Origin: a virus
Lineage: Duplodnaviria > Heunggongvirae > Uroviricota > Caudoviricetes
Length of the DNA: 41,340 nt
Strand: one strand, 5' to 3'
IMG/VR virus record: IMGVR_UViG_2778261227_000005
Coordinates: 1 to 41,340 of that record
Both the position numbers and the translations under genes were made by a program. This document shows, piece by piece, positions 1 to 16,038 of the stretch. The stretch's first letter is position 1, and every line of letters begins with the position of its first letter. Below the pieces are notes generated by a model that was given only the letters and a program-made list of their open reading frames with translations, did not search any database and was not told the DNA's origin.

Positions 1-48
1 GAAAAACGAGTATTTTTAGTCATCCTGTTTACCTCTTTCTCAGGAAGT

Positions 49-2802
49 TTAGTCTCCAGGATTCCCGGGGCGGTTCAGAATGACTAGTTGTTGCCAATAA
101 ATTCGTAGGTCAGGAGCCCCGTTAGCTAAGCCTTTACCAAATTCGACGCGATACGGCATTCCATCCCGCAAAAAAAGATTAGGGCACAACTCATCAAGTC
201 CATGGGAAGATACTGCAAATTCGTGCCCCAACTTGAAAGCTTTGGCACAAAGTATTTTCCTGATTTCACTGAATTTATTAGTTCCTTGGTGCTCATAATC
301 AGCATCTAGAGCCCAAAAATCGCGCCTATTACTGAGTACATAAGCCATGATTGCCGAAACCAAGTCTTTAGGTTCTAATTCTCGTTCCAATGTCACAAGT
401 ATTTCCGGCAATGGTTCTACGTCTTCGTTATCTTTTCTTTTTGTATGGAAAAAGTAGATTGTTGAGCGGACAGCTTTCCAGCCTTCACCCCAAGGGCGAT
501 GGGCATGTAACTTACGAGCCGCATCAATTAATTTTGACCTTATTCCTCCATGACGCCAAATCCAGCGAAATTTATCAGCCAAGATCCGCCTGGCATCATC
601 TTCAAGCTCGGGCACTCCTGAGGTTCCTAATCTCACCAAAATATCGATGAAGGCGAATAGCCACGCAACAAGTTCATCGTAACTGGGTCGAAATCCATAA
701 TCTCTTGGCCTAGCACCAAACTCATTAATTCCGAATCCTGTCCACGGAGGTCCGCCGAGAGCAGTTTCAAGCATTTCGATCCCCATCCTTCTACGTTCGG
801 CCATACTTGAATCAATGCATTCATTCATGATCGCAACACGTTGTTCTAAAGAGGCATGGGTACCGGATAGATAAGGTTGGAAAAACCTCTTTATCTTATT
901 TCGAGCCGAATCATAATTATTGCTCGCGCTTTCCTGGTCTGCGATACGGATTAAGAGCTTAATGCATCGTTCAAAGTATTTCGATTCATATGCAAGTAAC
1001 TGCAACAATTTGATAATTGCTGTTCGTTGTGGGTTGTAGCGTGATTTAAAATGCTCAAAATTAGACGTAACAAGCGTTTCTTCAATCCTCTCAAGCAAAG
1101 TTCCTGGGGCAACTGGAGCGATATAATTTAGAATGCGTGTCGATACATCATCTAGGTCTATTATTTTTCCAAGCAGCCCTTCGGGCTGTAACCAAGCTTC
1201 AACAATCTCTTTAGCCACAGCATGGCTATGCAATAGTCCCAACCTGTGCGCGAACGACATCAATAATCGTTGCCGATCCGGAGCTTCAAAGGTCGTTCTA
1301 AGTTGATCAATCGGAATACTATTAAGTGCAGATGCTGCCAACTTGTTAGCAATGGCATGGGGAAGGATGGCTCTCCAGTGGGATCTTTTCTGAACAATGT
1401 GACGTTCCATCAACTTCGTAACAGCTTTGAATAACTGGATTTTGGGATACCCAGAGAGCACACCCAATATTTCCAGTTCATCGGTAGCTGCATCTGGACT
1501 AGATATCGAGAACGAATACACCAGTGACAATATTTCAGCTTGCTCCCGTAAATGGCCGTCGGGATGATTACGTTGTTCAAACAAGCGATTAAACAACTGC
1601 GCATCTGAAAGTAGGGCTAAACTCTCACCTTCTTCCACTCTTTCCGCTATAGCCAAAGCCACTCTTGCATTCCCATCTGCGAACTCTGCAATCCGACGGG
1701 CATTATTCTGACCAATAGAAGGGAAGCGACGGATAAGAAGTTGCTCTGCCACGTCTGGACCATCTGTCTCAATGTGGATGACCTCAGTTGTCTGTGGTTT
1801 GTCATCCCTAATGTCGTACTCGATCGTGATGAGACTTACTTCTTTCCCTGCGGCTGATACTTTGCTGGCAAGCGAAGCATGGAGTTCTGATGGGCAATTA
1901 TCAAGGATCATAATTGCTCGCCGGCCTTCAGCGAGCAGGTTATCAAGCATTGCTGTAGCCGACGGTACTGGCTCATAGCCAGTATCAACATAAATAGCTA
2001 CTGTTCGGTCAAGCGCATCTGTTCCAACAGTTTCATCAAAGAGCGCCTGAACGATTCGAGTCTTCCCAACACCAGACAATCCTGTAATACGAACAGCCTT
2101 GTTTGTCGAACGGATCAGTGCTCGCATTGGGTTAATTGCTTCATCAATTTTGAGTTTTTGCCCCTTTCCCGATGGTAAAGTAATGGTTACGCCTGGGGCT
2201 GAGATTAAAGTGTCTATAACACCTTGTGGTGGATTGCTCCAGGCTCCGTAGGGTTGCCAACCGGAATACCCTTGCCCAAGCTTTGCTTTTACCCACAGCA
2301 TGACTGATGGATGTTGGCGCAACCATTGGATGAGTTTGGAGCGGTCGTAGAAATCAAGATGAAGATAACTTTCGTTAGGATCATCTTTTACTGCATCCCT
2401 CATCGCTTTGAGACGATCCTTCTTTCCTGACGGCGAGCAATCATCACCCAGGCTGACAATGATGTAACTGCCTTGCTTTCTGGCTTGTTCAGAAATGATG
2501 GGAGAAAGTGCTTTGCCGGTGCCAATTTCCCTCTCAATTGCAGACTTAGGCATCTTATGTTTCTTTGCCTGAAAGACCGTATCAGGTCTTACAAGAAAGC
2601 CTGCTTTCAGTTGATCAATTGGAACCTGAACATGGATGTCAATTCCTCCGTCAGGGGCTGTAATTGAACCAGACCAATTTACACATGCTGGGCTATGGCC
2701 GTGCATTGCCACTTCAGCTTCTGCTAGCCGAGCGATCAGCTCTTCCAGCTGGATATCGGAGAGCCGAAGTAATTCGTCCTTTTCAATGTCAAAGATTGCC
2801 AC
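49..2802 (-). CDS. Mrr-like PD-(D/E)xK nuclease domain fused to P-loop NTPase with helical C-terminal region (917 aa); candidate STAND/Avs-like antiviral protein
   Basis: Uninterrupted 917-codon ORF. N-terminus has Mrr-type motifs (APDGGIDIHV ... VFQAKKHK), central Walker A GLSGVGKT and Walker B-like AIMILDNC, long C-terminal region with no motif I recognise. AT-richer than the prophage core. Family call from motif recall only. Confidence 0.7.
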   Translation of the reverse strand: MAIFDIEKDELLRLSDIQLEELIARLAEAEVAMHGHSPACVNWSGSITAPDGGIDIHVQVPIDQLKAGFLVRPDTVFQAKKHKMPKSAIEREIGTGKALSPIISEQARKQGSYIIVSLGDDCSPSGKKDRLKAMRDAVKDDPNESYLHLDFYDRSKLIQWLRQHPSVMLWVKAKLGQGYSGWQPYGAWSNPPQGVIDTLISAPGVTITLPSGKGQKLKIDEAINPMRALIRSTNKAVRITGLSGVGKTRIVQALFDETVGTDALDRTVAIYVDTGYEPVPSATAMLDNLLAEGRRAIMILDNCPSELHASLASKVSAAGKEVSLITIEYDIRDDKPQTTEVIHIETDGPDVAEQLLIRRFPSIGQNNARRIAEFADGNARVALAIAERVEEGESLALLSDAQLFNRLFEQRNHPDGHLREQAEILSLVYSFSISSPDAATDELEILGVLSGYPKIQLFKAVTKLMERHIVQKRSHWRAILPHAIANKLAASALNSIPIDQLRTTFEAPDRQRLLMSFAHRLGLLHSHAVAKEIVEAWLQPEGLLGKIIDLDDVSTRILNYIAPVAPGTLLERIEETLVTSNFEHFKSRYNPQRTAIIKLLQLLAYESKYFERCIKLLIRIADQESASNNYDSARNKIKRFFQPYLSGTHASLEQRVAIMNECIDSSMAERRRMGIEMLETALGGPPWTGFGINEFGARPRDYGFRPSYDELVAWLFAFIDILVRLGTSGVPELEDDARRILADKFRWIWRHGGIRSKLIDAARKLHAHRPWGEGWKAVRSTIYFFHTKRKDNEDVEPLPEILVTLERELEPKDLVSAIMAYVLSNRRDFWALDADYEHQGTNKFSEIRKILCAKAFKLGHEFAVSSHGLDELCPNLFLRDGMPYRVEFGKGLANGAPDLRIYWQQLVILNRPGNPGD

Positions 2803-3269
2803 TTTTAAACCCTATAAAAGATATTGCGACCATAGAAAAAGTTGCTCTTAGTCTAACCAATGAGGGAAGAGATGTCCGCTGAACATTTACAATTAAAACC
2901 ATCCACTTCAATTGGTTAAGATGTTCTGACTCAGAACTGTGATGTCGATCATACCTACTTTTACGTAGAGCTATCAGTATGTATGAAACTAAGGTCTAGT
3001 ATGAACAAAGGACAGGCTCATGCTTTATATGACTGTGAGGTTAACGAGCATTCTAGGTGCAAAAAGTTCCACTAACTTGATGATTTTTTATTCTTGAGGT
3101 GGTTTAGTGCGAGTTTAAAAATTTGGCTAATGTTTAAGATCAATAAATAAGTCCTGATTTTTTACTCTTTAGCAATTTTGTTAGCATTTTGTGTACATTA
3201 AAAATGAATTTTTAATATTAGTTTTTTTTAGATTTGGTTGTTTAAAATTTTATTGGGTGGAGTACCAAT

Positions 3270-6200
3270 ATGAAATGGATAAAAGCACTTAACCTTCAGC
3301 AATGGGCAGATTCTATTCCTGCAAAAGTTATTTTTCCAGCACTAATCGCTGATCTTATACGTGCAACGGCTAACAGTATTACTGAAATTAGATTTCCTAA
3401 TGGTGATAAGGGACAGGTTAGAGGTTATGACGGTGTACTTAAAGCCGAGGGGGTGGCCCCCTATGTTCCTGATGGCGACTCATTCTGGGAATTTGGTGTT
3501 AATGAAAAATTGCTTGATAAAGCTAACTTTGATTACGAAAAAAGAACACGCGAAGTTGCTCCAGAGATACGTCTAAAGACTACTTTTGTTTTCGCTTCAT
3601 TAAGAACATGGGATAATCCTAAGGTAAAGCTTGAAGACTGGCTACAAGAGAAACGCAATAGTGGTAAGTGGAAAGACATCAAATTAATTGATGGTTCTAT
3701 GCTTGAAGATTGGCTCGGTGTTTGCCCTGCTGTAGCTGCTTACTACGCTCGCTACCATCTTGAGCTAATGCCACAGGTTGGTGTTAGAAGCATTAAGGAG
3801 TTTTGGGATGAATTTTCCACTAAATTTAATCCCCCTTTAACTGAAGCAGTCTTGCTGGCGGGGAGAGAAAAGCAAAAAGAGCGTTTTCTGAATGAGTTAC
3901 GAGAAAATGGTCGAAAAATATCTTTAGCTGCAGATTCTCCGGATGAGGTTATTGCTTTTGCGATTGCAGCTATCAGAACCACTGAAGCGGAACTTCGACA
4001 TTCCTTTCAAAGTCGAGCACTAATTATTGATACGGATGATGCTGCAAGACAGCTTTCTGGAAAAAGAGGAATGATCTTCTTACCACGTGATCGAGCAAGA
4101 GCTTTAGCCGGTTTATTACAGCAAGCATCTATCACAGTAGTAAGTGCCGGAGCCGATGAAACACGAACTGATCACGAACTTCTGATCCGCCCAGATAGTA
4201 TATCTTTAGGTAAGGCTCTTGAATCTATGGGGTTTGATTCAGATAAAAGTTATCAAATAGCGCGGCAGTGTGGCCGAAGTTTGTCTGTTTTGGCTCGCCA
4301 GATATCAAGTAGCACGGCTGAATCACCTGAATGGAAAGACAGCCCTGAGTTGCTCCCTGCTTTATTAGCTGGTGCATGGAGTACATGTTCAGAGAAAGAT
4401 AAGTTAATTCTCAAGCAACTAGCTGGCTATACAGACTATTCTCAAGTTGAAAATCCATTAAGGCTATTAACAAAGCGCCGCGATTCTCCAATTGACCGAG
4501 TAGATGATATTTGGTCATTGCGTTCGTCGGTAGATGCTTTTGTACATTTAGGCTATTTGCTGGGTGAAGAACACCTGGAGCGTTTTGAGAAGGCCGTAAG
4601 AGAGGTTTTTTCCTATATTCCTGAACCACCAAAGGCCGAAGATCTGTTTGTACCTGACAATGGTATTAAAACGTCTTATAGCTCGTGGTTACGTAATGGA
4701 ATGACAACAGTTTTGCTACATATGGCAATATTACATGAACAGGCCGAATTCCGGGTTACTGGTATGACACCCCAAGATTTTGTTAACAAAATAGTTCAGA
4801 GTATTCCGGGACTTGCTAACGACCATCGACTATTTGTTAGTTTGCGAGATCAACTTCCGCTGCTGGCAGAAGCTGCCCCTGGCCCTTTCCTTGATGCCCT
4901 TGAGCAATTGCTTAAGGGCAATGGGGAAATGATTGCTCCAATATTCAATGAAGATAAAGGGCTGTTAACTCCTCGAAGTCATTATCATGGATTAAAATGG
5001 GCATTGGAAGCCTTGGCTTGGGAACAAACATATCTATTACGCGCTGCAATCTGTCTTGCAAAACTCGCTGTAATAGATCCCGGAGGAACTTACTCAGATC
5101 GCCCTCTTAATAGTTTAAGAACCATTTTTCTGGCATGGTCTCCTAATACATGGGCACCAGTAAAAGTTAGAAATGCAATTATAAAAAAAATTATCACTAT
5201 TGTTCCTAGTATTGGGTGGAGTTTGTTACAAAATCTCCTTCCTCGCTCCCATGATACCTCTGATCAAAACCAAAAAATGAAGTTCAGAGAGTCGGATAAA
5301 GATGTAGAAAAACTAACGTGGGGCGTTGTTTGGGAGGGGCAAATCTTTATTATCCAAGAAGCAATTAAACTTGCAGGTATACTCCCAACAAGATGGGAAA
5401 TCCTAATCTCTCATTTAAGCTCATTCCCTGAGAATGCAATAGATGAAACACTTTCTCATCTTGAACTTTGCCTTTCTCAACAAACTGAAGAGGATCAGTT
5501 CATCGTATGGGAGGCTTTGCGTCATGAGTATTCTCGCCATAAAAAATATTCAGATGCGAACTGGGCATTTAAATTTGAGTCTATGGAAAAAATAGCGAAA
5601 ATACTTGATAATTATAAACCAATTGACATGGTTAGAGCCAGTTTATGGATTTTCAATGATTGGGATTCTGATATTGAAGAGTCAATTGAAAATGCTGGCG
5701 GAATTTTTTCTTCTGTCGAAGAAATGCGAAGTGAAAAACTTAGGGAAATATACTTTACTTTAGGTTTGTCTGGGGTGAAAGACCTTTTTCAACAAGTTAA
5801 TAATGTTTTTATTGCAGCAAGGCATATATCAGCACTCTCGTTGGATGAAGAAAAATTAAATGATTTGTTTGTAATGCTTATTAACAACAAAAAAAATATT
5901 GATGAAGTTTGTGGGTTGTTAATGCAATATGGTGTTGAATGCTTTGGTGCTGAATGGCTTAATAAAATAAAAGTGTATTTTAAACAGTTTAAAATTACCC
6001 CTGATAGGGCTGGGAAAATCTTAGCATCGTTAAGAGACTCACAAGAGATATGGAGCATTATTGAAGGGTTTGAAGATAACATCAACGAAAAATATTGGTT
6101 GCAAAAACAACCCATTGCAATGATGGGTAAAACTTCGGATTTATTTGTTCTTATGGATAAATATATAGAAAGGGGCCGGGGTCTTGCTGCTATTATATCA

Positions 6201-7016
6201 GCAAATCAACGCCTTTCTGAGATTCCATCTACAACACTTTTATATCTTCTAGATATAGTCGTTAAAGAAATAAATAGCCAGGATATCCAATTTGATACAA
6301 TGCTATCGTACTATGTAAAAAAAGTTTTTGATGAACTCAAACAACGTAACGATGTTTCTGAAACAGATTTGGCATTTAAAGAAATGACCTACTTGCCTTG
6401 TTTTCCGGATAGCGATGAGCCACTTATCCTGCATCGTCTAATGATGAAAAAGCCAGAGGTTTTTATAGAAGCAATATGTATTGTATATCGTAGTGACGAA
6501 GATGAACAAACAGAACCATCGGAGTTGGAAGTTAAAAGAGCTACTTCTATATACAGATTACTTGAAAAATTACGAATACTACCAGGGCAGATAGACAATG
6601 AAATTGATCAAGATAAACTTGAAGATTGGTGTGAGAATGTACGCCATTTAGCAAAATTGCATCATCGCCAAGAAATCACTGATCATGTAATAGGAAAAAT
6701 TCTGGCACATGCCCCTAATAGCTCAGTAGATAATTCCTGGCCACATGAAGCAATTCGGCACATCATTGAAATATTATCTTCTGATGAGTTAGAGCAAGGT
6801 ATACAAATTGGTAGGTACAATAAAAGGGGGGTATTTGCTCGTATGCGTTACGAAGGTGGAAACCAAGAAAGGATATTAGCTGAGCAGTACCGAGAATGGG
6901 CAAATTCAATGCCCCACTGCGTCCGTACTTCTGCAATGCTATTTAGAATCGCTGACGAATGGGAATACTCAGCAAAAAACGCAGATATTCGAGCCGCAAA
7001 GGCTGATTTAAAATAG
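3270..7016 (+). CDS. Large hypothetical protein (1248 aa), no recognisable catalytic motif; candidate defence-island cargo
   Basis: Single 1248-codon ORF, strongly AT-rich, GGTGGAG RBS-like sequence upstream of ATG 3270. No Walker A (GxxxxGK[ST]) or helicase motif found on reading. Divergent from the 917-aa gene across a 467-bp AT-rich spacer. Confidence 0.8.
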   Translation: MKWIKALNLQQWADSIPAKVIFPALIADLIRATANSITEIRFPNGDKGQVRGYDGVLKAEGVAPYVPDGDSFWEFGVNEKLLDKANFDYEKRTREVAPEIRLKTTFVFASLRTWDNPKVKLEDWLQEKRNSGKWKDIKLIDGSMLEDWLGVCPAVAAYYARYHLELMPQVGVRSIKEFWDEFSTKFNPPLTEAVLLAGREKQKERFLNELRENGRKISLAADSPDEVIAFAIAAIRTTEAELRHSFQSRALIIDTDDAARQLSGKRGMIFLPRDRARALAGLLQQASITVVSAGADETRTDHELLIRPDSISLGKALESMGFDSDKSYQIARQCGRSLSVLARQISSSTAESPEWKDSPELLPALLAGAWSTCSEKDKLILKQLAGYTDYSQVENPLRLLTKRRDSPIDRVDDIWSLRSSVDAFVHLGYLLGEEHLERFEKAVREVFSYIPEPPKAEDLFVPDNGIKTSYSSWLRNGMTTVLLHMAILHEQAEFRVTGMTPQDFVNKIVQSIPGLANDHRLFVSLRDQLPLLAEAAPGPFLDALEQLLKGNGEMIAPIFNEDKGLLTPRSHYHGLKWALEALAWEQTYLLRAAICLAKLAVIDPGGTYSDRPLNSLRTIFLAWSPNTWAPVKVRNAIIKKIITIVPSIGWSLLQNLLPRSHDTSDQNQKMKFRESDKDVEKLTWGVVWEGQIFIIQEAIKLAGILPTRWEILISHLSSFPENAIDETLSHLELCLSQQTEEDQFIVWEALRHEYSRHKKYSDANWAFKFESMEKIAKILDNYKPIDMVRASLWIFNDWDSDIEESIENAGGIFSSVEEMRSEKLREIYFTLGLSGVKDLFQQVNNVFIAARHISALSLDEEKLNDLFVMLINNKKNIDEVCGLLMQYGVECFGAEWLNKIKVYFKQFKITPDRAGKILASLRDSQEIWSIIEGFEDNINEKYWLQKQPIAMMGKTSDLFVLMDKYIERGRGLAAIISANQRLSEIPSTTLLYLLDIVVKEINSQDIQFDTMLSYYVKKVFDELKQRNDVSETDLAFKEMTYLPCFPDSDEPLILHRLMMKKPEVFIEAICIVYRSDEDEQTEPSELEVKRATSIYRLLEKLRILPGQIDNEIDQDKLEDWCENVRHLAKLHHRQEITDHVIGKILAHAPNSSVDNSWPHEAIRHIIEILSSDELEQGIQIGRYNKRGVFARMRYEGGNQERILAEQYREWANSMPHCVRTSAMLFRIADEWEYSAKNADIRAAKADLK

Positions 7017-7050
7017 AAAGATTCAAAACCAAAATTAGAATAAATCATAA

Positions 7051-7074
7051 AAACCCTGCTTAAGAGCAGGGTTT
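7051..7074. terminator. Perfect 10-bp stem / 4-nt loop hairpin downstream of the 1248-aa gene; probable intrinsic terminator
   Basis: aaaccctgct-taag-agcagggttt is an exact inverted repeat, 35 nt after the stop at 7016; the following T-tract is weak (aacttcttt). Confidence 0.5.
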
Positions 7075-7154
7075 AACTTCTTTCAGCGTCATTTAAAATT
7101 GCAGACCTTCAGGTTAATCTACCCAAAAACAGAACGGGTTTTAGCTACGACATG

Positions 7155-7349
7155 TCATCCAACTAACCGCATTGCCTTTATCCCTCCTTCAATCATACTA
7201 CCGTGATCTGCAGCCATCACAAAATCAGCCCACCACTGCATCATAGGCCGTCGCTGCTCAAGATAATCACTACGGTTATACGCACGACGAACCTCATTCT
7301 TATCCACATGAGCAAGTGCAGCCTCAATAACATCAGGTGGAAATCCCTG
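7155..7349 (-). pseudogene. 3' fragment of a tyrosine integrase gene (C-terminal ~64 codons including the catalytic-Tyr region), truncated at the prophage boundary
   Basis: Minus-strand translation reads ...QGFPPDVIEAALAHVDKNEVRRAYNRSDYLEQRRPMMQWWADFVMAADHGSMIEGGIKAMRLVG*, matching the conserved C-terminal end of P4/CP4-57-type integrases (from memory). The frame has no start and is closed by a stop immediately upstream at 7353-7355. Confidence 0.6.
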
Positions 7350-7481
<132 letters not shown>

Positions 7482-7510: not shown

Positions 7511-7900
7511 TTACTCTTTTTTCTCCGTATCTACATCGGGTTCATCAGCAAATAGCTTGCCCTGCATCCGATCCAGTTCTTCTTTTCTTACCCGCTTAAC
7601 CACGCTGTAGACCCACTGAAGCGAAACACCAAATTTGCGGGCCAGTTCATGGTGGTTACGTCCGTTAAACTCCCTGAAGATTTCCCGGTCGCGCTGACTG
7701 ACCTTCCATACCATGCCCATCGGGAAATAAACGTTTTGCCCGCCCCAGACCTGCATCATGCGGTTCGCGACGGCCTGACCAATCTGGTCGGCAATTGCGG
7801 GCTCAATATCAATAATCTCGCGAACGGTTTCAGAGGTATGCTGTGCCAGTTCCACCAGGAGTTCCGGCCCTTTACTTCGAAACTGATTCAGGTCGCTCAT
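7511..7900 (-). CDS. mor: Mor/C-family transcriptional activator (middle/late operon regulator)
   Basis: 129 aa; pattern GGQNVYFP...RDREIFREFNGRNHHELARKFGVSLQWVYSVVKRVR matches the Mu Mor dimerisation and C-terminal HTH region as I recall it. Confidence 0.8.
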   Translation of the reverse strand: MSDLNQFRSKGPELLVELAQHTSETVREIIDIEPAIADQIGQAVANRMMQVWGGQNVYFPMGMVWKVSQRDREIFREFNGRNHHELARKFGVSLQWVYSVVKRVRKEELDRMQGKLFADEPDVDTEKKE

Positions 7901-8324
7901 GTTTTACTCCCGCAGCTCTGTGCTGCCACTTCTTCAGTTTCTCAATAACACTGCTTGCCTGTTCAGTATTGAGCCAGCGCAGGGCGCTGATGCCCGTTTC
8001 CCGCTTGATCCACCGCGCTAATGCATTTTCTGAACGGTCACGAACAATGCCGGCAGCAGCCATTTCAAGCCATAGCGCACGGATTTTCCTGGACTGCGGA
8101 TGGTTATCCAGCGGTAAACCGGAGCTGGCTTTTCTGGCAGGCTTAACGCGAAAGCCTTTCCTTTTCATGGATTCCAGCACGCAGTTTAGTTGTGTGGTAT
8201 CCATTCCTTTGGTTGAGGCTTTACCGGTCAGCCCCTGTAACATCTGGCGGTAGGTGTCTTCATCCATACCCAGTTCATTACGGGCAATATGAATGAGCTG
8301 GATAAGACGTTGTTTAGTCATCAT
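7872..8324 (-). CDS. gemA: Mu GemA/gp16-like protein (DUF1018)
   Basis: Translation MMTKQRLIQLIHIARNELGMDEDTYRQMLQ... is typical of Mu gp16/GemA; start placed at ATG 8324 with AAGGAG 5 nt upstream (the track ORF extends to 8363). Confidence 0.7.
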   Translation of the reverse strand: MMTKQRLIQLIHIARNELGMDEDTYRQMLQGLTGKASTKGMDTTQLNCVLESMKRKGFRVKPARKASSGLPLDNHPQSRKIRALWLEMAAAGIVRDRSENALARWIKRETGISALRWLNTEQASSVIEKLKKWQHRAAGVKHERPESVSK

Positions 8325-8529
8325 CGTTGCTCCTTTTACCTGCGCCACCGATATAATCGACATATAAAGGAAGCGCCACAGGCCAGCACAGGAACATCAC
8401 CGACCAGCTAATCCAGTAGCCGGCACCACTGTAACGTGAATAAAACCCTGAACGGCGGTGCAGTTCAGCAGTACACCAACCGACAAAACAATACCAGAAC
8501 AGGGCACATACAACAGATTCAGCCGTCAT
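8314..8529 (-). CDS. Small hydrophobic protein (~71 aa), putative membrane protein
   Basis: Internal Met of track ORF 8314..8685; hydrophobic segment CALFWYCFVGWC and WISWSVMFLCWPVALPLYV. Start choice uncertain. Confidence 0.4.
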   Translation of the reverse strand: MTAESVVCALFWYCFVGWCTAELHRRSGFYSRYSGAGYWISWSVMFLCWPVALPLYVDYIGGAGKRSNDDD

Positions 8530-11131: not shown

Positions 11132-12325
11132 TTAAACCCCTTTGACAACGTCAGCGTTGACCTGTGGAACCCCGATTTCAGCGGCCAGATTCATGGCGGC
11201 TATTACCAGGTTACTGACGGCCAGCGGATACAGCAGGCTGACCATATTTTTACTATGACTTCCCGGATTGCTCAGGCGGGTACGTATGGCATCCACTGCG
11301 CTGGCGTCCATAATGTCCGTCAGTTGTTTACCGGCCCGTTGCAGTTTGAACGTCAGAAATTCTTCAAGGTGATTGTCCAGAGGCAGAAGTTCGACCACCT
11401 CACAGCGCTGAACGACTTCGCGGACTTCCATGTTGCGTTCAGACAGTTTTGTCGCCAGTTCCGGCTGGCCAATCAGCACGATGGACAGCAGCTTTTTGAA
11501 ACCGGACTCCAGCTCAAAAAAGCGTTTGAGGTGTTTCAGTGTCGGAATGGGCAGACTGTGAGCCTCCTCAATCACCAGAACGTGGCTGAACCCCGCCTGG
11601 CTGCTGTCTTTCAGGACGCGATGCAACTGGCGAAAGCGGGCGTCCTGACTGCGTCTGATGCTTTCCAGTGGTGCGATGGTACTGATAATGGCTTCGGCAA
11701 TCGCTGCTGCCTTCAGAGTTTTCCCTTTCACATCGTTGTCTTCCATAGCGATGACGTATGGCTCGATAACAATTACCGGCGCATTCTCGCGGTTGATACG
11801 TTCAGTCAGGTCGCGGCGCAGCGTGGATTTACCCGCACCGGACTCACCGATGACGGCCATAAACCCACCATGACGGGCTGTCTGGTACAACGCCTCACGC
11901 ACGTAGCGAATGTCCGGGGTGGTGAACACATCATCAGAACCCTGCATGGCTTCGTCGGCGAACGGGTCACGGAAAAGACCAAACGCTTTTTTGGTTGCTG
12001 GAAATAACACCTGTTTTTTGAGTAACATATTCTCTTCCTCACTGAGGCTCGTTTTATCTGTGGTACCCGCTGTACGGGGCGTGGCCGCGCCCTGTACAGC
12101 ATCAAAACTCTTCGTTGTATCAATCCCCTGACTTTCCAGCCAGGACGCAAGACGCCGGCGCACTTCTCCGGGGCTGGTGCGGGGCCACGCGTTATGATTC
12201 ACAATCTGGGCCAGCGTGGCCTCAGAAACATCGACAGCTCTCGCCACCACCGCCTGTGGAATACGTGCCTCTTTCAGTTGCTGCTTCAGTACCAGCATGT
12301 TTCCCTCCTCAGTTGCCGTTAACAA
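11132..12325 (-). CDS. Transposition ATPase, MuB-like target DNA activator (397 aa)
   Basis: Walker A VIGESGAGKST, AAA+-like core, N-terminal HTH-like region; lies immediately downstream of the transposase and overlaps it by 17 nt. Confidence 0.8.
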   Translation of the reverse strand: MLTATEEGNMLVLKQQLKEARIPQAVVARAVDVSEATLAQIVNHNAWPRTSPGEVRRRLASWLESQGIDTTKSFDAVQGAATPRTAGTTDKTSLSEEENMLLKKQVLFPATKKAFGLFRDPFADEAMQGSDDVFTTPDIRYVREALYQTARHGGFMAVIGESGAGKSTLRRDLTERINRENAPVIVIEPYVIAMEDNDVKGKTLKAAAIAEAIISTIAPLESIRRSQDARFRQLHRVLKDSSQAGFSHVLVIEEAHSLPIPTLKHLKRFFELESGFKKLLSIVLIGQPELATKLSERNMEVREVVQRCEVVELLPLDNHLEEFLTFKLQRAGKQLTDIMDASAVDAIRTRLSNPGSHSKNMVSLLYPLAVSNLVIAAMNLAAEIGVPQVNADVVKGV

Positions 12326-14078
12326 TGCTGATAACGCTGCTGCGGGCCGGCGTGGTCAGCGTGGCCATGACTTCATCCAGTGCGGCTTCCGGTACGCCGT
12401 CCGGGTACTGTGCCGTTAACTGGCGGTAATGTTCCGGCGTCCAGGTAAGGCCGTTGGCGCTGAACTTCCCGCGCAGAGCTTTCGCGGCCTCCACATGAGT
12501 CATGGGACGCTGTTCAGTGCGCGTTCCGCGTACGTCAGAGGCCTGGCCTCGCTTCGGCATATAGGCCGGAAGTGTGGCGTCATCAATATGTTTATACGGG
12601 TCAAGCCGCCCGCCGAACGGCAGCGCCTTCGCCTTGCGTGCGGCAGCTGCATCTGCGGCGTTGTCTGTACTGGTGACCAGCGCTTCGGTTTCTTTTGCCG
12701 CCATCTGCGCCGGGGTTTCCGGCAGGGCTTTGTAACTTTCGCCAAATACCGCCGCGCCTTCAGCAAAGCCAAACTCGTTCTTTCTGACCTCTTCGACCAG
12801 GAAGAACGTCTCGTGGCCGTCCTCACCGGTCAGAACCACCTGTGCCACATCGCTGCGCCACGGGTTACGGGTAATCATCAGTTTTTCACCGACCAGTACG
12901 CCCGGTACCGTTGATACGTCAAATTCAGTGCCCCGGAACGAGACACGAAGTTTTGGCGTGACTTTGCGGAGTTCTGGTGCCGCCACAGCCAGTTCACGAC
13001 ATACCTCAACGGAAGGCGCTTTTTTCAGCTGCTCAGCAGTAATCTTCAGCCAGATATCCGTGCGGGTTTTACCGTGGCGGCTGTGAACAGCCGTGGCGTT
13101 AAAGTGGCTGCGCCATTTCGCGGCCAGCGCGTTGAGTTCTTCCAGACTGTGAACCGGCCGGAACTTCAGACCCGGCTCCAGCTTGCGTTCGATAATGTCA
13201 CGCGCCTTTTCCACCTGTCCGGTGGCGCGGGCGTTATGCGGCTTGTGCGCTATCAGGTCAATGCCCAGTGAGCGGCACATGTTTTTCGTCATACCCGCGG
13301 TGTTTGCCGAGCCGGGGTCGAGATAGAGTATTTTTGGCACGCCGTGCAGCACGTCTGCGCCGCCACGCTCCTGCATGGCGTTGATAAGCACAGAACACAG
13401 GTTCTCACCGGATTCCGCACCCGTCACATACTCAACGTAAATCCAGCCGCTGGCATGGTCGGTAATCTCGTAACTCCACACGCGGTCACTGGCGATACGG
13501 GCAAGGTTAGCGGGTTTGTTCTTGTAGAACTTCGCGCTGTCCATCACCTGCAGCCCTTTGTGTCCATTGCTCAGGTAGTAAAGCGTGCAGAGCGAGGCAT
13601 CAATCTGCCAGACATGATTGGGATGCAGACTGGCCACTTCGGTATGCGGCGCAGGGGCATCCAGTTGTTCCGGGTGCAGGCCATAGTTACGCAGGGCACG
13701 ACTGATGGCATCTTCGGACAACGGGAAAAACTCACCGGTGGTTTCATCTGTTCTGCCTGCGGAGATAAAGCCGTTAGCCCGCAGGGTTTCCACTGCATCC
13801 GCGATGGAATAGAGACGCTTACCGTTCTTGCGGGTGGCCTCACGTAGTGTGGCAGATATCAGCGCGGCTTCGTCGCGGGTCAGGGCGCTGCGCCCGGCAT
13901 CGGCGCGTTTTTTGCGTTTATCAGTCACAGATACCTCCTTCAGCCTGCGCAGCAGAGTGGCGCGGGACATGCCAAGTTCAGCACAGGCAGCGTCGTATAT
14001 TGCACCGCGTTTACCATGCCCCGCGTCACGTGCCGCGCGGGCGACATAAACCAGTCGTTCAGTCAGGGCAGCATTCAT
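12309..14078 (-). CDS. Mu-type DDE transposase (MuA-like, 589 aa)
   Basis: N-terminal DNA-binding region, RNase H-like core with HVWQIDAS and ILYLDPGSANTA motifs; positioned ner - x - A - B as in transposable phages. Confidence 0.85.
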   Translation of the reverse strand: MNAALTERLVYVARAARDAGHGKRGAIYDAACAELGMSRATLLRRLKEVSVTDKRKKRADAGRSALTRDEAALISATLREATRKNGKRLYSIADAVETLRANGFISAGRTDETTGEFFPLSEDAISRALRNYGLHPEQLDAPAPHTEVASLHPNHVWQIDASLCTLYYLSNGHKGLQVMDSAKFYKNKPANLARIASDRVWSYEITDHASGWIYVEYVTGAESGENLCSVLINAMQERGGADVLHGVPKILYLDPGSANTAGMTKNMCRSLGIDLIAHKPHNARATGQVEKARDIIERKLEPGLKFRPVHSLEELNALAAKWRSHFNATAVHSRHGKTRTDIWLKITAEQLKKAPSVEVCRELAVAAPELRKVTPKLRVSFRGTEFDVSTVPGVLVGEKLMITRNPWRSDVAQVVLTGEDGHETFFLVEEVRKNEFGFAEGAAVFGESYKALPETPAQMAAKETEALVTSTDNAADAAAARKAKALPFGGRLDPYKHIDDATLPAYMPKRGQASDVRGTRTEQRPMTHVEAAKALRGKFSANGLTWTPEHYRQLTAQYPDGVPEAALDEVMATLTTPARSSVISIVNGN

Positions 14079-15606: not shown

Positions 15607-16038
15607 GTGGAATTACGCAAAATGAATAACAAAGATGTTAACGCTGTGCTTTCCCGGTTAATGTCACTATTCCAAGCAGAGAATGATAGTGAGTTGGCAA
15701 GAGCGCTTAACGTCAACAGGCAGACACTTGCAAGTTGGAGGAAGCGTGATTCTGTGCCTTATGCAATTTGCATAAACATCGCAGAAGAAAAGGGGGTTTC
15801 TTTAGATTGGTTGCTAACAGGTAGAAAACAAGGTTTATCAAAAGAAGTAGACGTAACTCCGACGCAAGTGCAGTTTAGCCAAGCTGACCTTACTATGCTT
15901 GAGCTTTTAAAGCAGCTAGACCCCGAGGTTCGTAACGATCTTCTGCGAGGCGCTGCGGAAAAACAGCGAGTGATCGAGATGGAAAAACAACTGAAGGAAT
16001 TATCCGCAACGATTGAGCGGTTAAAAAATGTGGGTTAA
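15607..16038 (+). CDS. CI-like phage repressor (HTH, phage_CI_repr-type N-terminal domain)
   Basis: LARALNVNRQTLASWRKRDSVPYAICINIAEEKGVSLDWLLTG is typical of the phage CI-repressor HTH; divergent from ner. Frame opens with GTG at 15607; ATG at 15622 is an alternative start; no clear RBS, so possibly leaderless. Confidence 0.75.
   Translation: MELRKMNNKDVNAVLSRLMSLFQAENDSELARALNVNRQTLASWRKRDSVPYAICINIAEEKGVSLDWLLTGRKQGLSKEVDVTPTQVQFSQADLTMLELLKQLDPEVRNDLLRGAAEKQRVIEMEKQLKELSATIERLKNVG

What the first reader, a model, noticed from the sequence alone, without database searches (positions are those of the whole stretch)
2803..3269. Strongly AT-rich divergent control region between the two large genes
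467 bp with long A/T runs (for example tttttactctttagcaattttgttagcattttgtgtacattaaaaatgaatttttaatattagtttttttt) separates the divergently transcribed 917-aa and 1248-aa genes. Such curved, AT-rich DNA in horizontally acquired loci is commonly bound by H-NS, so expression may be silenced until relieved.
Basis: inference. Interest (0 to 1): 0.35.

Follow-up and report, generated by a model that had tools for sequence, protein, structure and literature searches.

The report
AT-rich spacer between two defence genes
This is an ordinary, very AT-rich promoter region between the known E. coli anti-phage gene Avs8A (PD-lambda-4, broken here by an insertion sequence) and a large uncharacterised neighbour; dampening by H-NS is plausible and already reported for PD-lambda-4, but full silencing and DNA curvature are not supported.

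Summary
Window 2803-3269 is a 467-bp spacer at 31.9% GC and contains the lowest-GC 100 bp of the whole 41-kb window (17%, 3155-3254). The AT-richness is concentrated in the right 189 bp. The spacer is a mosaic: about 2803-2987 travels with the left gene and 2988-3269 with the right gene. The left "917-aa gene" is Avs8A/PD-lambda-4A (normally 1283 aa) cut at codon 908 by an IS3-family element. The right gene belongs to an unannotated family of about 1250 aa. The locus is cargo of the integrase island at ssrA in E. coli.

Published primers show that spacer 2803-3180 drives functional Avs8 defence from a promoterless plasmid in hns+ MG1655. A 2026 preprint reports PD-lambda-4 up-regulated in delta-hns ECOR34. 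H-NS therefore probably dampens expression rather than silencing it. No ChIP data exist for this locus.

Tests for A-tract phasing (curvature), enrichment of the H-NS nucleation motif, promoter-like density above composition, Rfam families, RNA structure and conserved small ORFs were all negative. Two weak, conserved promoter candidates are proposed. Verdict: a real but ordinary feature whose interpretation is partly supported. The more interesting by-product is that the 1248-aa protein looks like a P-loop-less distant relative of Avs8A.

The parts
1..77 (-). End of an IS3-family insertion sequence inserted into Avs8A. It resembles IS629/IS1203, but that name is from memory only.
   Evidence: Bases 1-77 match thousands of IS3-family copies in E. 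coli. Homology to intact Avs8A begins at base 78.
49..2802 (-). Truncated Avs8A (PD-lambda-4A): native codons 1-908 of 1283 (bases 78-2802) plus 9 IS-encoded codons. It carries the Mrr-type nuclease and the P-loop STAND NTPase but lacks the last 375 residues. Avs8B is not in the window.
   Evidence: The PADLOC model PD-Lambda-4_A matches profile positions 1-908 of 1283 at 1877 bits. The DNA is 100% identical to loci encoding WP_000963924.1, which is the ECOR07 Avs8A accession.
2803..2987 (.). Avs8-linked part of the spacer: probable promoter, a leader of about 138 nt, and the ribosome-binding site (AGGG on the minus strand at 2813-2810).
   Evidence: It is conserved at about 80-93% alongside diverged Avs8A genes even where the neighbour differs (RMDEC465 L003). 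Similarity stops near 2987.
2948..2977 (-). Best candidate Avs8 promoter: -35 CTGATA (2977-2972), 18-bp spacer, -10 TATGAT (2953-2948), predicted start near 2941.
   Evidence: Weight-matrix score is 8.3 bits, and it is also found by the simple scan. The -10 keeps T1, A2 and T6 in L003, L004 and L009. It lies inside the experimentally sufficient 2803-3180 fragment. This is an inference, not a mapped start.
2988..3269 (.). Part of the spacer linked to the 1248-aa gene. Its middle (about 3028-3131) is dispensable.
   Evidence: It is conserved only in loci that also carry the 1248-aa gene (L004, L009, L008) and is absent from RMDEC465. L009 lacks about 104 bp here.
3081..3269 (.). Extreme AT-rich tract (24% GC) and the most likely H-NS nucleation site.
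   Evidence: H-NS binding is inferred from composition only.
3156..3180 (-). Binding site of the published cloning primer PD-lambda-4-R. It marks the end of the functional native-promoter clone pCV15.
   Evidence: Exact match to the gene-specific part of the primer in Table S8 of PMC9519451. The partner primer maps downstream of Avs8B in L001.
3161..3187 (+). Best candidate promoter of the 1248-aa gene: -35 TTTACT (3161-3166), 15-bp spacer, extended -10 TGtTAGCAT (3179-3187), predicted start near 3194.
   Evidence: Weight-matrix score is 7.4 bits with a TG extension. TGnTAGnAT is kept in L009 (TGcTAGCAT) and L004 (TGtTAGAAT). This is an inference.
3233..3262 (+). Conserved block TTTGGTTGTTTAAAATTTTATTGGG, containing the palindrome TAAAATTTTA (3243-3252), followed by the ribosome-binding site GGAG (3259-3262).
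   Evidence: It is the best-conserved stretch of the right half in the three-way alignment. Whether it is an operator is unknown.
3270..7016 (+). 1248-aa protein of an unannotated family (WP_000871158.1). It has a nuclease-like N-terminal domain, an AAA+-like core without a Walker A motif, and a long helical C-terminal region.
   Evidence: No Pfam, NCBIfam, PADLOC or PDB sequence hit. Family of about 1250 aa at 45-83% identity. Structure model and fold hits. Weak domain-matched similarity to Avs8A.

Best explanation
The spacer is a composite, back-to-back promoter region formed where two independently mobile defence-type gene cassettes abut in the E. coli ssrA integrase island.

The left ~185 bp (2803-2987) belong to Avs8/PD-lambda-4. 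They carry its promoter (best guess: -10 TATGAT at 2953-2948), a leader of about 138 nt, and the ribosome-binding site.

The right ~280 bp belong to the 1248-aa gene. They carry its promoter (best guess: extended -10 TGtTAGCAT at 3179-3187) and a leader of about 75 nt that is very AT-rich and unstructured.

The 189-bp tract at 24% GC, together with the low-GC body of the 1248-aa gene, most likely nucleates H-NS (and StpA) filaments that spread over both promoters and lower transcription. For Avs8 this is dampening, not an off-switch.

What is shown: the anatomy, the composition, the mosaic structure, that 2803-3180 is sufficient for Avs8 function (published clone), and de-repression of PD-lambda-4 in delta-hns ECOR34 (published). 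What is inferred: the promoter positions, H-NS binding at this site, and any effect on the 1248-aa gene.
For: - Geometry and composition.
- Mosaic boundary near 2987, from a strain whose diverged Avs8A has a different neighbour.
- The pairing of the two genes is local: 2 of 75 Avs8A loci.
- The published PD-lambda-4 clone ends at window 3180, sits in a promoterless vector and protects hns+ MG1655.
- The Avs8 protein accessions are identical to the characterised ECOR07 system.
- PD-lambda-4 is up-regulated in delta-hns ECOR34.
- The same preprint gives a precedent for an oppositely oriented defence pair (lit/Kunado) silenced in one H-NS hairpin.
- Conserved -10 elements on both sides.
- 137 of 139 E. 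coli genomes carrying the spacer have it at 99% identity or more, so the ECOR34 and ECOR07 loci very probably share it.
Against: - No H-NS ChIP exists for any strain carrying this locus, so the delta-hns effect may be indirect.
- There is no helical phasing of A-tracts, and the nucleation motif gives only one 2-mismatch hit.
- Sigma-70-like matches are not enriched over composition: 10 observed against 16.6 +/- 4.3 in shuffles. The best correctly oriented candidates score only 7-8 bits with poor -35 elements.
- Avs8 is clearly functional in hns+ cells, both natively and on a plasmid.
- That plasmid lacked 3181-3269, so it does not test the full tract.
- That ECOR34 carries this exact spacer is inferred, not verified.
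Confidence: 0.6

Rival explanations
1. It is a plain intergenic promoter region with no H-NS involvement. The AT-richness is the usual drop seen upstream of genes, amplified in a low-GC island. Both genes are expressed at a low constitutive level, and the delta-hns effect on PD-lambda-4 in ECOR34 is indirect.
For: - Upstream regions of Avs8A in 68 other loci are on average 6.5 GC points below their locus, so some drop is generic.
- Avs8 works in hns+ cells.
- There is no curvature signal and no nucleation-motif enrichment.
- There is no ChIP at this locus.
Against: - The right tract is 17 points below the already low-GC island and is the AT extreme of 41 kb. That is well beyond the generic 6.5-point drop.
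- PD-lambda-4 was specifically listed among the de-repressed defence systems.
Confidence: 0.25
2. A dedicated regulator, rather than or in addition to H-NS, controls the right-hand gene through the conserved block 3233-3257, which contains the palindrome TAAAATTTTA. The regulator could be island-encoded or a host factor such as LeuO or Fis.
For: - The block is the best-conserved stretch of the right half of the spacer in three diverged loci.
- An HTH regulator gene lies about 6 kb away in the intact island.
Against: - The block directly abuts the ribosome-binding site, so its conservation may reflect translation initiation.
- A 10-bp A/T palindrome is unremarkable in DNA at 24% GC.
- No regulator gene is linked to the 1248-aa family in other lineages.
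Confidence: 0.1
3. The long spacer hides an unannotated element, such as a small RNA, a structured leader or riboswitch, or a small protein gene.
For: - 467 bp is long for an E. coli intergenic region.
- A 30-codon ORF exists at 2983-3075.
Against: - There is no Rfam match even at E <= 1 and no terminator-like site.
- Folding z-scores are 0.0 to +0.8 for both leaders and for the centre on both strands.
- The small ORF's frame is not kept in L004, and about 104 bp of the centre are missing in L009.
Confidence: 0.03

Closest known systems
H-NS-silenced AT-rich defence loci in E. coli: type I-E CRISPR-Cas, retron Eco1 in the BL21 P2-like prophage, and the divergent lit/Kunado pair in e14 (bioRxiv 10.64898/2026.09.05.749240)
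   Same: It is horizontally acquired, low-GC defence cargo next to an integrase, with oppositely oriented genes sharing an AT-rich upstream region. PD-lambda-4 itself is listed as de-repressed in delta-hns ECOR34.
   Different: There are no ChIP or Micro-C data for this locus. Avs8 is demonstrably active in hns+ cells, so it is not silent in the way K-12 CRISPR-Cas is. Curvature and the nucleation motif were not detected.
Avs8 / PD-lambda-4 two-gene defence system (Vassallo 2022, PMC9519451; bioRxiv 10.1101/2025.07.02.662641 and 10.64898/2026.01.04.697583)
   Same: The left gene is the same allele as the characterised ECOR07 Avs8A. The spacer up to 3180 is the 'native promoter' fragment used in the published clone.
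   Different: In this window Avs8A is cut at codon 908 by an IS3-family element, and Avs8B is not present in the window. In seven other Enterobacterales a retron-type reverse transcriptase ends 39-40 bp upstream of Avs8A, in place of this spacer.
Generic bacterial divergent (back-to-back) sigma-70 promoter regions
   Same: Two start codons face away from each other across a non-coding, AT-rich spacer. Each side has a plausible -10 element and a ribosome-binding site.
   Different: The spacer is unusually long and is a mosaic of two unrelated modules rather than a co-evolved bidirectional unit. The promoter matches are weak.

Membership tests
H-NS-bound xenogeneic silencing region | AT content far above the host average over a few hundred bp | tested here: met
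   31.9% GC over 467 bp and 24% over 189 bp. It is one of only two segments in 41 kb with at least 70% AT over 200 bp.
H-NS-bound xenogeneic silencing region | Located in horizontally acquired DNA | tested here: met
   It is cargo of the integrase island at ssrA, present in 139 of 5426 E. coli genomes, with island GC of 41%.
H-NS-bound xenogeneic silencing region | High-affinity nucleation motif (TCGATAAATT-like; motif recalled from Lang et al. 2007) | tested here: inconclusive
   There is one hit with 2 mismatches in the spacer (3140-3149). The window total is 41 against 30 +/- 5 expected.
H-NS-bound xenogeneic silencing region | Intrinsic curvature (A-tracts phased at about 10-11 bp) | tested here: not met
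   Power at periods 10-11.5 is not above dinucleotide shuffles in the whole spacer or in either half. Curvature is not obligatory for H-NS binding.
H-NS-bound xenogeneic silencing region | H-NS occupancy by ChIP | not testable with these tools
   Published ChIP-seq was done in MG1655 and BL21-AI, which are not expected to carry this locus (my knowledge of the K-12 and BL21 ssrA islands; not checked here).
H-NS-bound xenogeneic silencing region | De-repression in an hns mutant | not tested
   Literature only. PD-lambda-4 is up in delta-hns ECOR34 by RNA-seq. The fold change is not available and the 1248-aa gene is not reported.
Divergent sigma-70 promoter region | Correctly oriented -35/-10 elements on each strand | tested here: inconclusive
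   Candidates score 7-8 bits with conserved -10 elements, but match density is below composition-matched shuffles and equal to chance in the simple scan.
Divergent sigma-70 promoter region | Promoter activity of the fragment | not testable with these tools
   Indirect published support exists for the Avs8 direction only. The clone ending at 3180, in a promoterless vector, confers defence.
Avs8 / PD-lambda-4 (left gene) | Match to the PD-Lambda-4_A model and to the characterised protein | tested here: met
   1877 bits. The DNA is identical to loci encoding WP_000963924.1.
Avs8 / PD-lambda-4 (left gene) | Full-length A protein with its C-terminal sensor, plus the B gene | tested here: not met
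   Only profile positions 1-908 of 1283 are present. The IS junction is at 77/78 and Avs8B is outside the window.
STAND/Avs NTPase (right gene) | P-loop (Walker A) NTPase core | tested here: not met
   No conserved G/AxxxxGK[ST] motif in 25 of 25 family members. The NTPase regions do not align (probability 0.2%). Fold hits to AAA+/SAMD9 are weak, with best E = 1.4e-3.
STAND/Avs NTPase (right gene) | Homology to Avs8A in the effector and sensor regions | tested here: inconclusive
   hhalign gives N-domain against Mrr at E = 4.9e-4 (probability 32%) and C against C at E = 1.7e-4 (probability 50%, 536 collinear columns). All mismatched domain pairs score below 1%.

The most novel reading that the evidence does not exclude
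The 1248-aa protein may be a previously unrecognised, P-loop-less distant paralog of Avs8A, with a nuclease-like head, a degenerate AAA+-like core and an Avs8-like helical sensor, that acts as an anti-phage gene in its own right. In E. coli it would be co-regulated with Avs8 because the shared AT-rich spacer and its own low-GC body nucleate a single H-NS filament or hairpin spanning both promoters.
Probability: 0.2. Interest if true: 0.5.

Novelty: new member of a known kind. Interest (0 to 1): 0.2.

Why it matters
Practical consequences:
- Published Avs8 constructs stop at window 3180. They omit the most AT-rich 89 bp, so plasmid assays may understate native repression.
- Anyone measuring Avs8 regulation should include the whole spacer and the neighbouring low-GC gene.
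- In this strain the Avs8 promoter drives a truncated gene, so the system is probably non-functional whatever its regulation.

More broadly, the locus is a further candidate example of host H-NS setting the expression level of mobile defence genes, a principle that is already published. The uncharacterised 1248-aa family next door is the part most likely to repay experiments.

Tried and rejected
- Rfam scan of 2500-3600 at E <= 1: nothing.
- Terminator scan: none.
- RNA folding of both putative leaders and of the spacer centre on both strands: z = 0.0 to +0.8.
- Small ORFs: the 30-codon ORF at 2983-3075 is not conserved in frame in L004 and is partly deleted in L009.
- Repeats: only short two-copy matches. 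The best is an 18-nt direct repeat at 3081 and 3155, which is not conserved in L004.
- A-tract phasing: negative.
- H-NS motif enrichment: marginal for the window and a single weak hit in the spacer.
- Promoter density against shuffles: not enriched.
- The candidate promoter TTGAGG-17-AAAAAT (3094-3122) was rejected because the segment is absent in Intestinirhabdus.
- Literature search for the O104:H4 locus tags and for the 1248-aa protein accessions: no expression or functional data.
- Supplements of the H-NS preprint are not held, so fold changes could not be read. One part of the Vassallo supplement held nothing relevant.
- Sequence and profile searches of the 1248-aa family against PDB, Pfam, NCBIfam and PADLOC: no hits.
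- No complete E. coli genome shares this window's IS or prophage junctions, so the source strain could not be identified.

Full report
WHAT IS THERE. The coordinates are right. A minus-strand ORF starts at GTG 2802 and a plus-strand ORF at ATG 3270, leaving a 467-bp spacer that contains the quoted A/T-rich string. Spacer GC is 31.9%. The flanking ORFs are 45.6% and 39.2%, the first 7355 bases are 41.2%, and the rest of the window is 54.3%. The lowest-GC 100 bp of the whole window is 3155-3254, at 17%. Only this spacer and 5700-6050, inside the right gene, reach at least 70% AT over 200 bp. The AT-richness is uneven: 3081-3269 is 24% GC with 42 uninterrupted A/T runs of 8 bp or more per kb, whereas 2803-3080 is 35-40% GC with 3.6 such runs per kb.

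CONTEXT. The window is E. coli. Bases 78-7355 are 100% identical to a locus found in about 100-140 of 5426 complete genomes, including O104:H4. There it is cargo of the integrase island at ssrA. In intact loci the left gene is 1283 aa (WP_000963924.1) and is followed by a 248-aa gene (WP_000443183.1). These are the accessions of ECOR07 Avs8A and Avs8B, also known as PD-lambda-4. Avs8A is an Mrr-nuclease STAND NTPase that senses HK97-fold major capsid proteins.

In this window an IS3-family element (bases 1-77) cuts Avs8A after codon 908, producing the 917-aa ORF. On the other side, the island integrase is broken at about 7350 by a Mu-family transposable prophage carrying a Mor activator, a transposase and a repressor. 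No complete genome in the collection shares either junction.

THE SPACER IS A MOSAIC. Strain RMDEC465 has a 94%-identical Avs8A at the same site, but its divergent neighbour is a small ORF plus a DEAD-box helicase and a DUF2290 protein. Its spacer aligns with the window only up to about 2987. Loci that also carry the 1248-aa gene (L004, at 83% protein identity; Intestinirhabdus L009; Shigella L008) share the right part as well. So about 2803-2987 travels with Avs8 and 2988-3269 travels with the 1248-aa gene.

Across 75 species-level Avs8A loci, only two have the 1248-aa gene next door, and both copies are broken. Seven Enterobacterales instead have a retron-type reverse transcriptase ending 39-40 bp before Avs8A. 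The two "large genes" are therefore independent cassettes, not a conserved divergent unit.

PROMOTERS. Sigma-70-like matches are not enriched. The simple scan finds 4 against 2.9 +/- 1.8 expected. A weight-matrix scan finds 10 sites of at least 6 bits, against 16.6 +/- 4.3 in composition-matched shuffles.

Two correctly oriented candidates survive footprinting. On the minus strand, CTGATA-18-TATGAT (2977-2948) keeps its -10 in all four relatives. On the plus strand, TTTACT-15-TGtTAGCAT (3161-3187) keeps its extended -10 (TGnTAGnAT) in L004 and L009. A rival plus-strand candidate at 3094-3122 lies in a segment of about 104 bp that is missing from L009.

There is one experimental anchor. The published primer PD-lambda-4-R matches window 3156-3180 exactly, and its partner maps downstream of Avs8B. 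The published clone therefore carried spacer 2803-3180 in a promoterless pSC101 vector, and it protected wild-type MG1655. A working Avs8 promoter thus lies in 2803-3180, and the clone lacked the most AT-rich 89 bp.

H-NS. Points in favour:
- The composition (AT content, long A/T runs, TpA steps) and the foreign origin of the DNA.
- A 2026 preprint lists PD-lambda-4 among the systems up-regulated in delta-hns ECOR34 by RNA-seq. It also describes an oppositely oriented defence pair (lit/Kunado) co-compacted in one H-NS hairpin.
- 137 of the 139 E. coli genomes that carry the spacer have it at 99% identity or more, so ECOR34 very probably shares it. This is an inference.

Points against, or missing:
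- ChIP-seq was done only in MG1655 and BL21-AI.
- A-tracts are not phased at 10-11 bp.
- The nucleation motif gives one 2-mismatch hit in the spacer.
- Avs8 is functional in hns+ cells, both natively in ECOR07 and from the plasmid clone.

The best reading is that H-NS dampens expression rather than silencing it.

OTHER CONTENT EXCLUDED. There is no Rfam family, no terminator, no RNA structure above shuffles, no conserved small ORF and no meaningful repeat.

THE RIGHT-HAND GENE. The 1248-aa protein has no hit in Pfam, NCBIfam, PADLOC or PDB sequence searches. It belongs to a family of uniform length (about 1250 aa, 45-83% identity) across Beta- and Gammaproteobacteria. An AlphaFold model of residues 1-400 (pLDDT 81.7) shows an alpha/beta N-terminal domain followed by an alpha/beta core with a helical lid. 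Fold hits are weak: AAA+ ATPases and SAMD9, and MUS81 nuclease for the first ~155 residues.

No member has a conserved Walker A motif. Profile-profile comparison with an Avs8A family profile scores only for matched domains: N-domain against Mrr at E = 4.9e-4 (probability 32%), and C against C at E = 1.7e-4 (probability 50%, 536 collinear columns). All mismatched pairs score below 1% probability. This suggests remote homology but does not prove it.

Neighbourhoods include a Lamassu LmuB_C gene, Mrr, CTD7 and MC3 domains, AbiEi, SMC/AAA_15 genes and integrases. These are consistent with a defence role. In those lineages the upstream spacers are short (60-305 bp; coordinates), and in Stenotrophomonas, the only high-GC host measured, the spacer is not AT-rich (58% GC against a 61% locus). 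The long AT-rich spacer is therefore a feature of the enterobacterial locus, not of the family.

VERDICT. The feature is real but ordinary: a composite divergent promoter region in a low-GC defence island. The H-NS idea is plausible and, for PD-lambda-4, already in the literature at the level of RNA-seq. "Curved" and "silenced" are not supported. The added value of this analysis is fourfold: the identification of the genes, the IS truncation, the mosaic boundary, and the experimentally bounded promoter fragment. It also yields a lead that the neighbouring gene may be a P-loop-less relative of Avs8A.

Noticed in passing
window 1-77 and 49-2802: An IS3-family element is inserted in Avs8A after codon 908 of 1283, so the PD-lambda-4 system of this strain is probably inactive. 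No complete E. coli genome among 5426 has this junction.
   Followed up: yes
window ~7350-41340: A Mu-family transposable prophage is inserted in the ssrA-island integrase gene. It has a TG end, Mor and gp16 at 7511-8363, a transposase at 12309-14078, a repressor at 15607-16038, and late genes on the plus strand. Other strains carry it next to prpR, aceK and other genes.
   Followed up: partly
window 3270-7016: The 1248-aa protein family has no annotation anywhere and no Walker A motif. It shows weak, domain-matched, collinear similarity to Avs8A in the N-terminal nuclease-like domain and the C-terminal helical region. It sits in defence-type neighbourhoods in Burkholderia and Polynucleobacter.
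   Followed up: partly
L010 4866-5960 (also L011, L015-L018, L073): In seven Enterobacterales a retron-type reverse transcriptase (PADLOC RT_VI, E = 6e-72, YVDD motif) ends 39-40 bp upstream of Avs8A. This suggests an RT-Avs8 operon, or tight linkage, that has not been described for the E. coli system.
   Followed up: partly
L003 7503-10392 (E. coli RMDEC465): The same ssrA-island slot next to a 94%-identical Avs8A holds a different cargo: a 64-aa ORF, a DEAD/DEAH helicase (PADLOC 'Helicase', E = 2e-108) and a DUF2290 protein. The position next to the integrase therefore behaves as a swap site for defence cassettes.
   Followed up: partly
window 5700-6050: This is the second and only other segment of the window with at least 70% AT, and it lies inside the 1248-aa gene. 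It is a possible second H-NS contact that could bridge to the spacer.
   Followed up: no
L008 (Shigella flexneri) and L009 (Intestinirhabdus alba): The 1248-aa gene is split into three separated pieces in Shigella and two pieces in Intestinirhabdus, while Avs8A is intact in both. The neighbour gene appears to be decaying in these lineages.
   Followed up: no
window 7051-7074: The perfect hairpin AAACCCTGC-TTAAGA-GCAGGGTTT lies between the stop of the 1248-aa gene and the convergent integrase remnant. It is a likely bidirectional terminator (read by eye).
   Followed up: no
L012 (Scandinavium manionii) 4673-5893: The Avs8-side spacer is interrupted by about 1.2 kb of inserted DNA roughly 105-110 bp upstream of the Avs8A start. 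This separates the gene from the candidate promoter segment.
   Followed up: no
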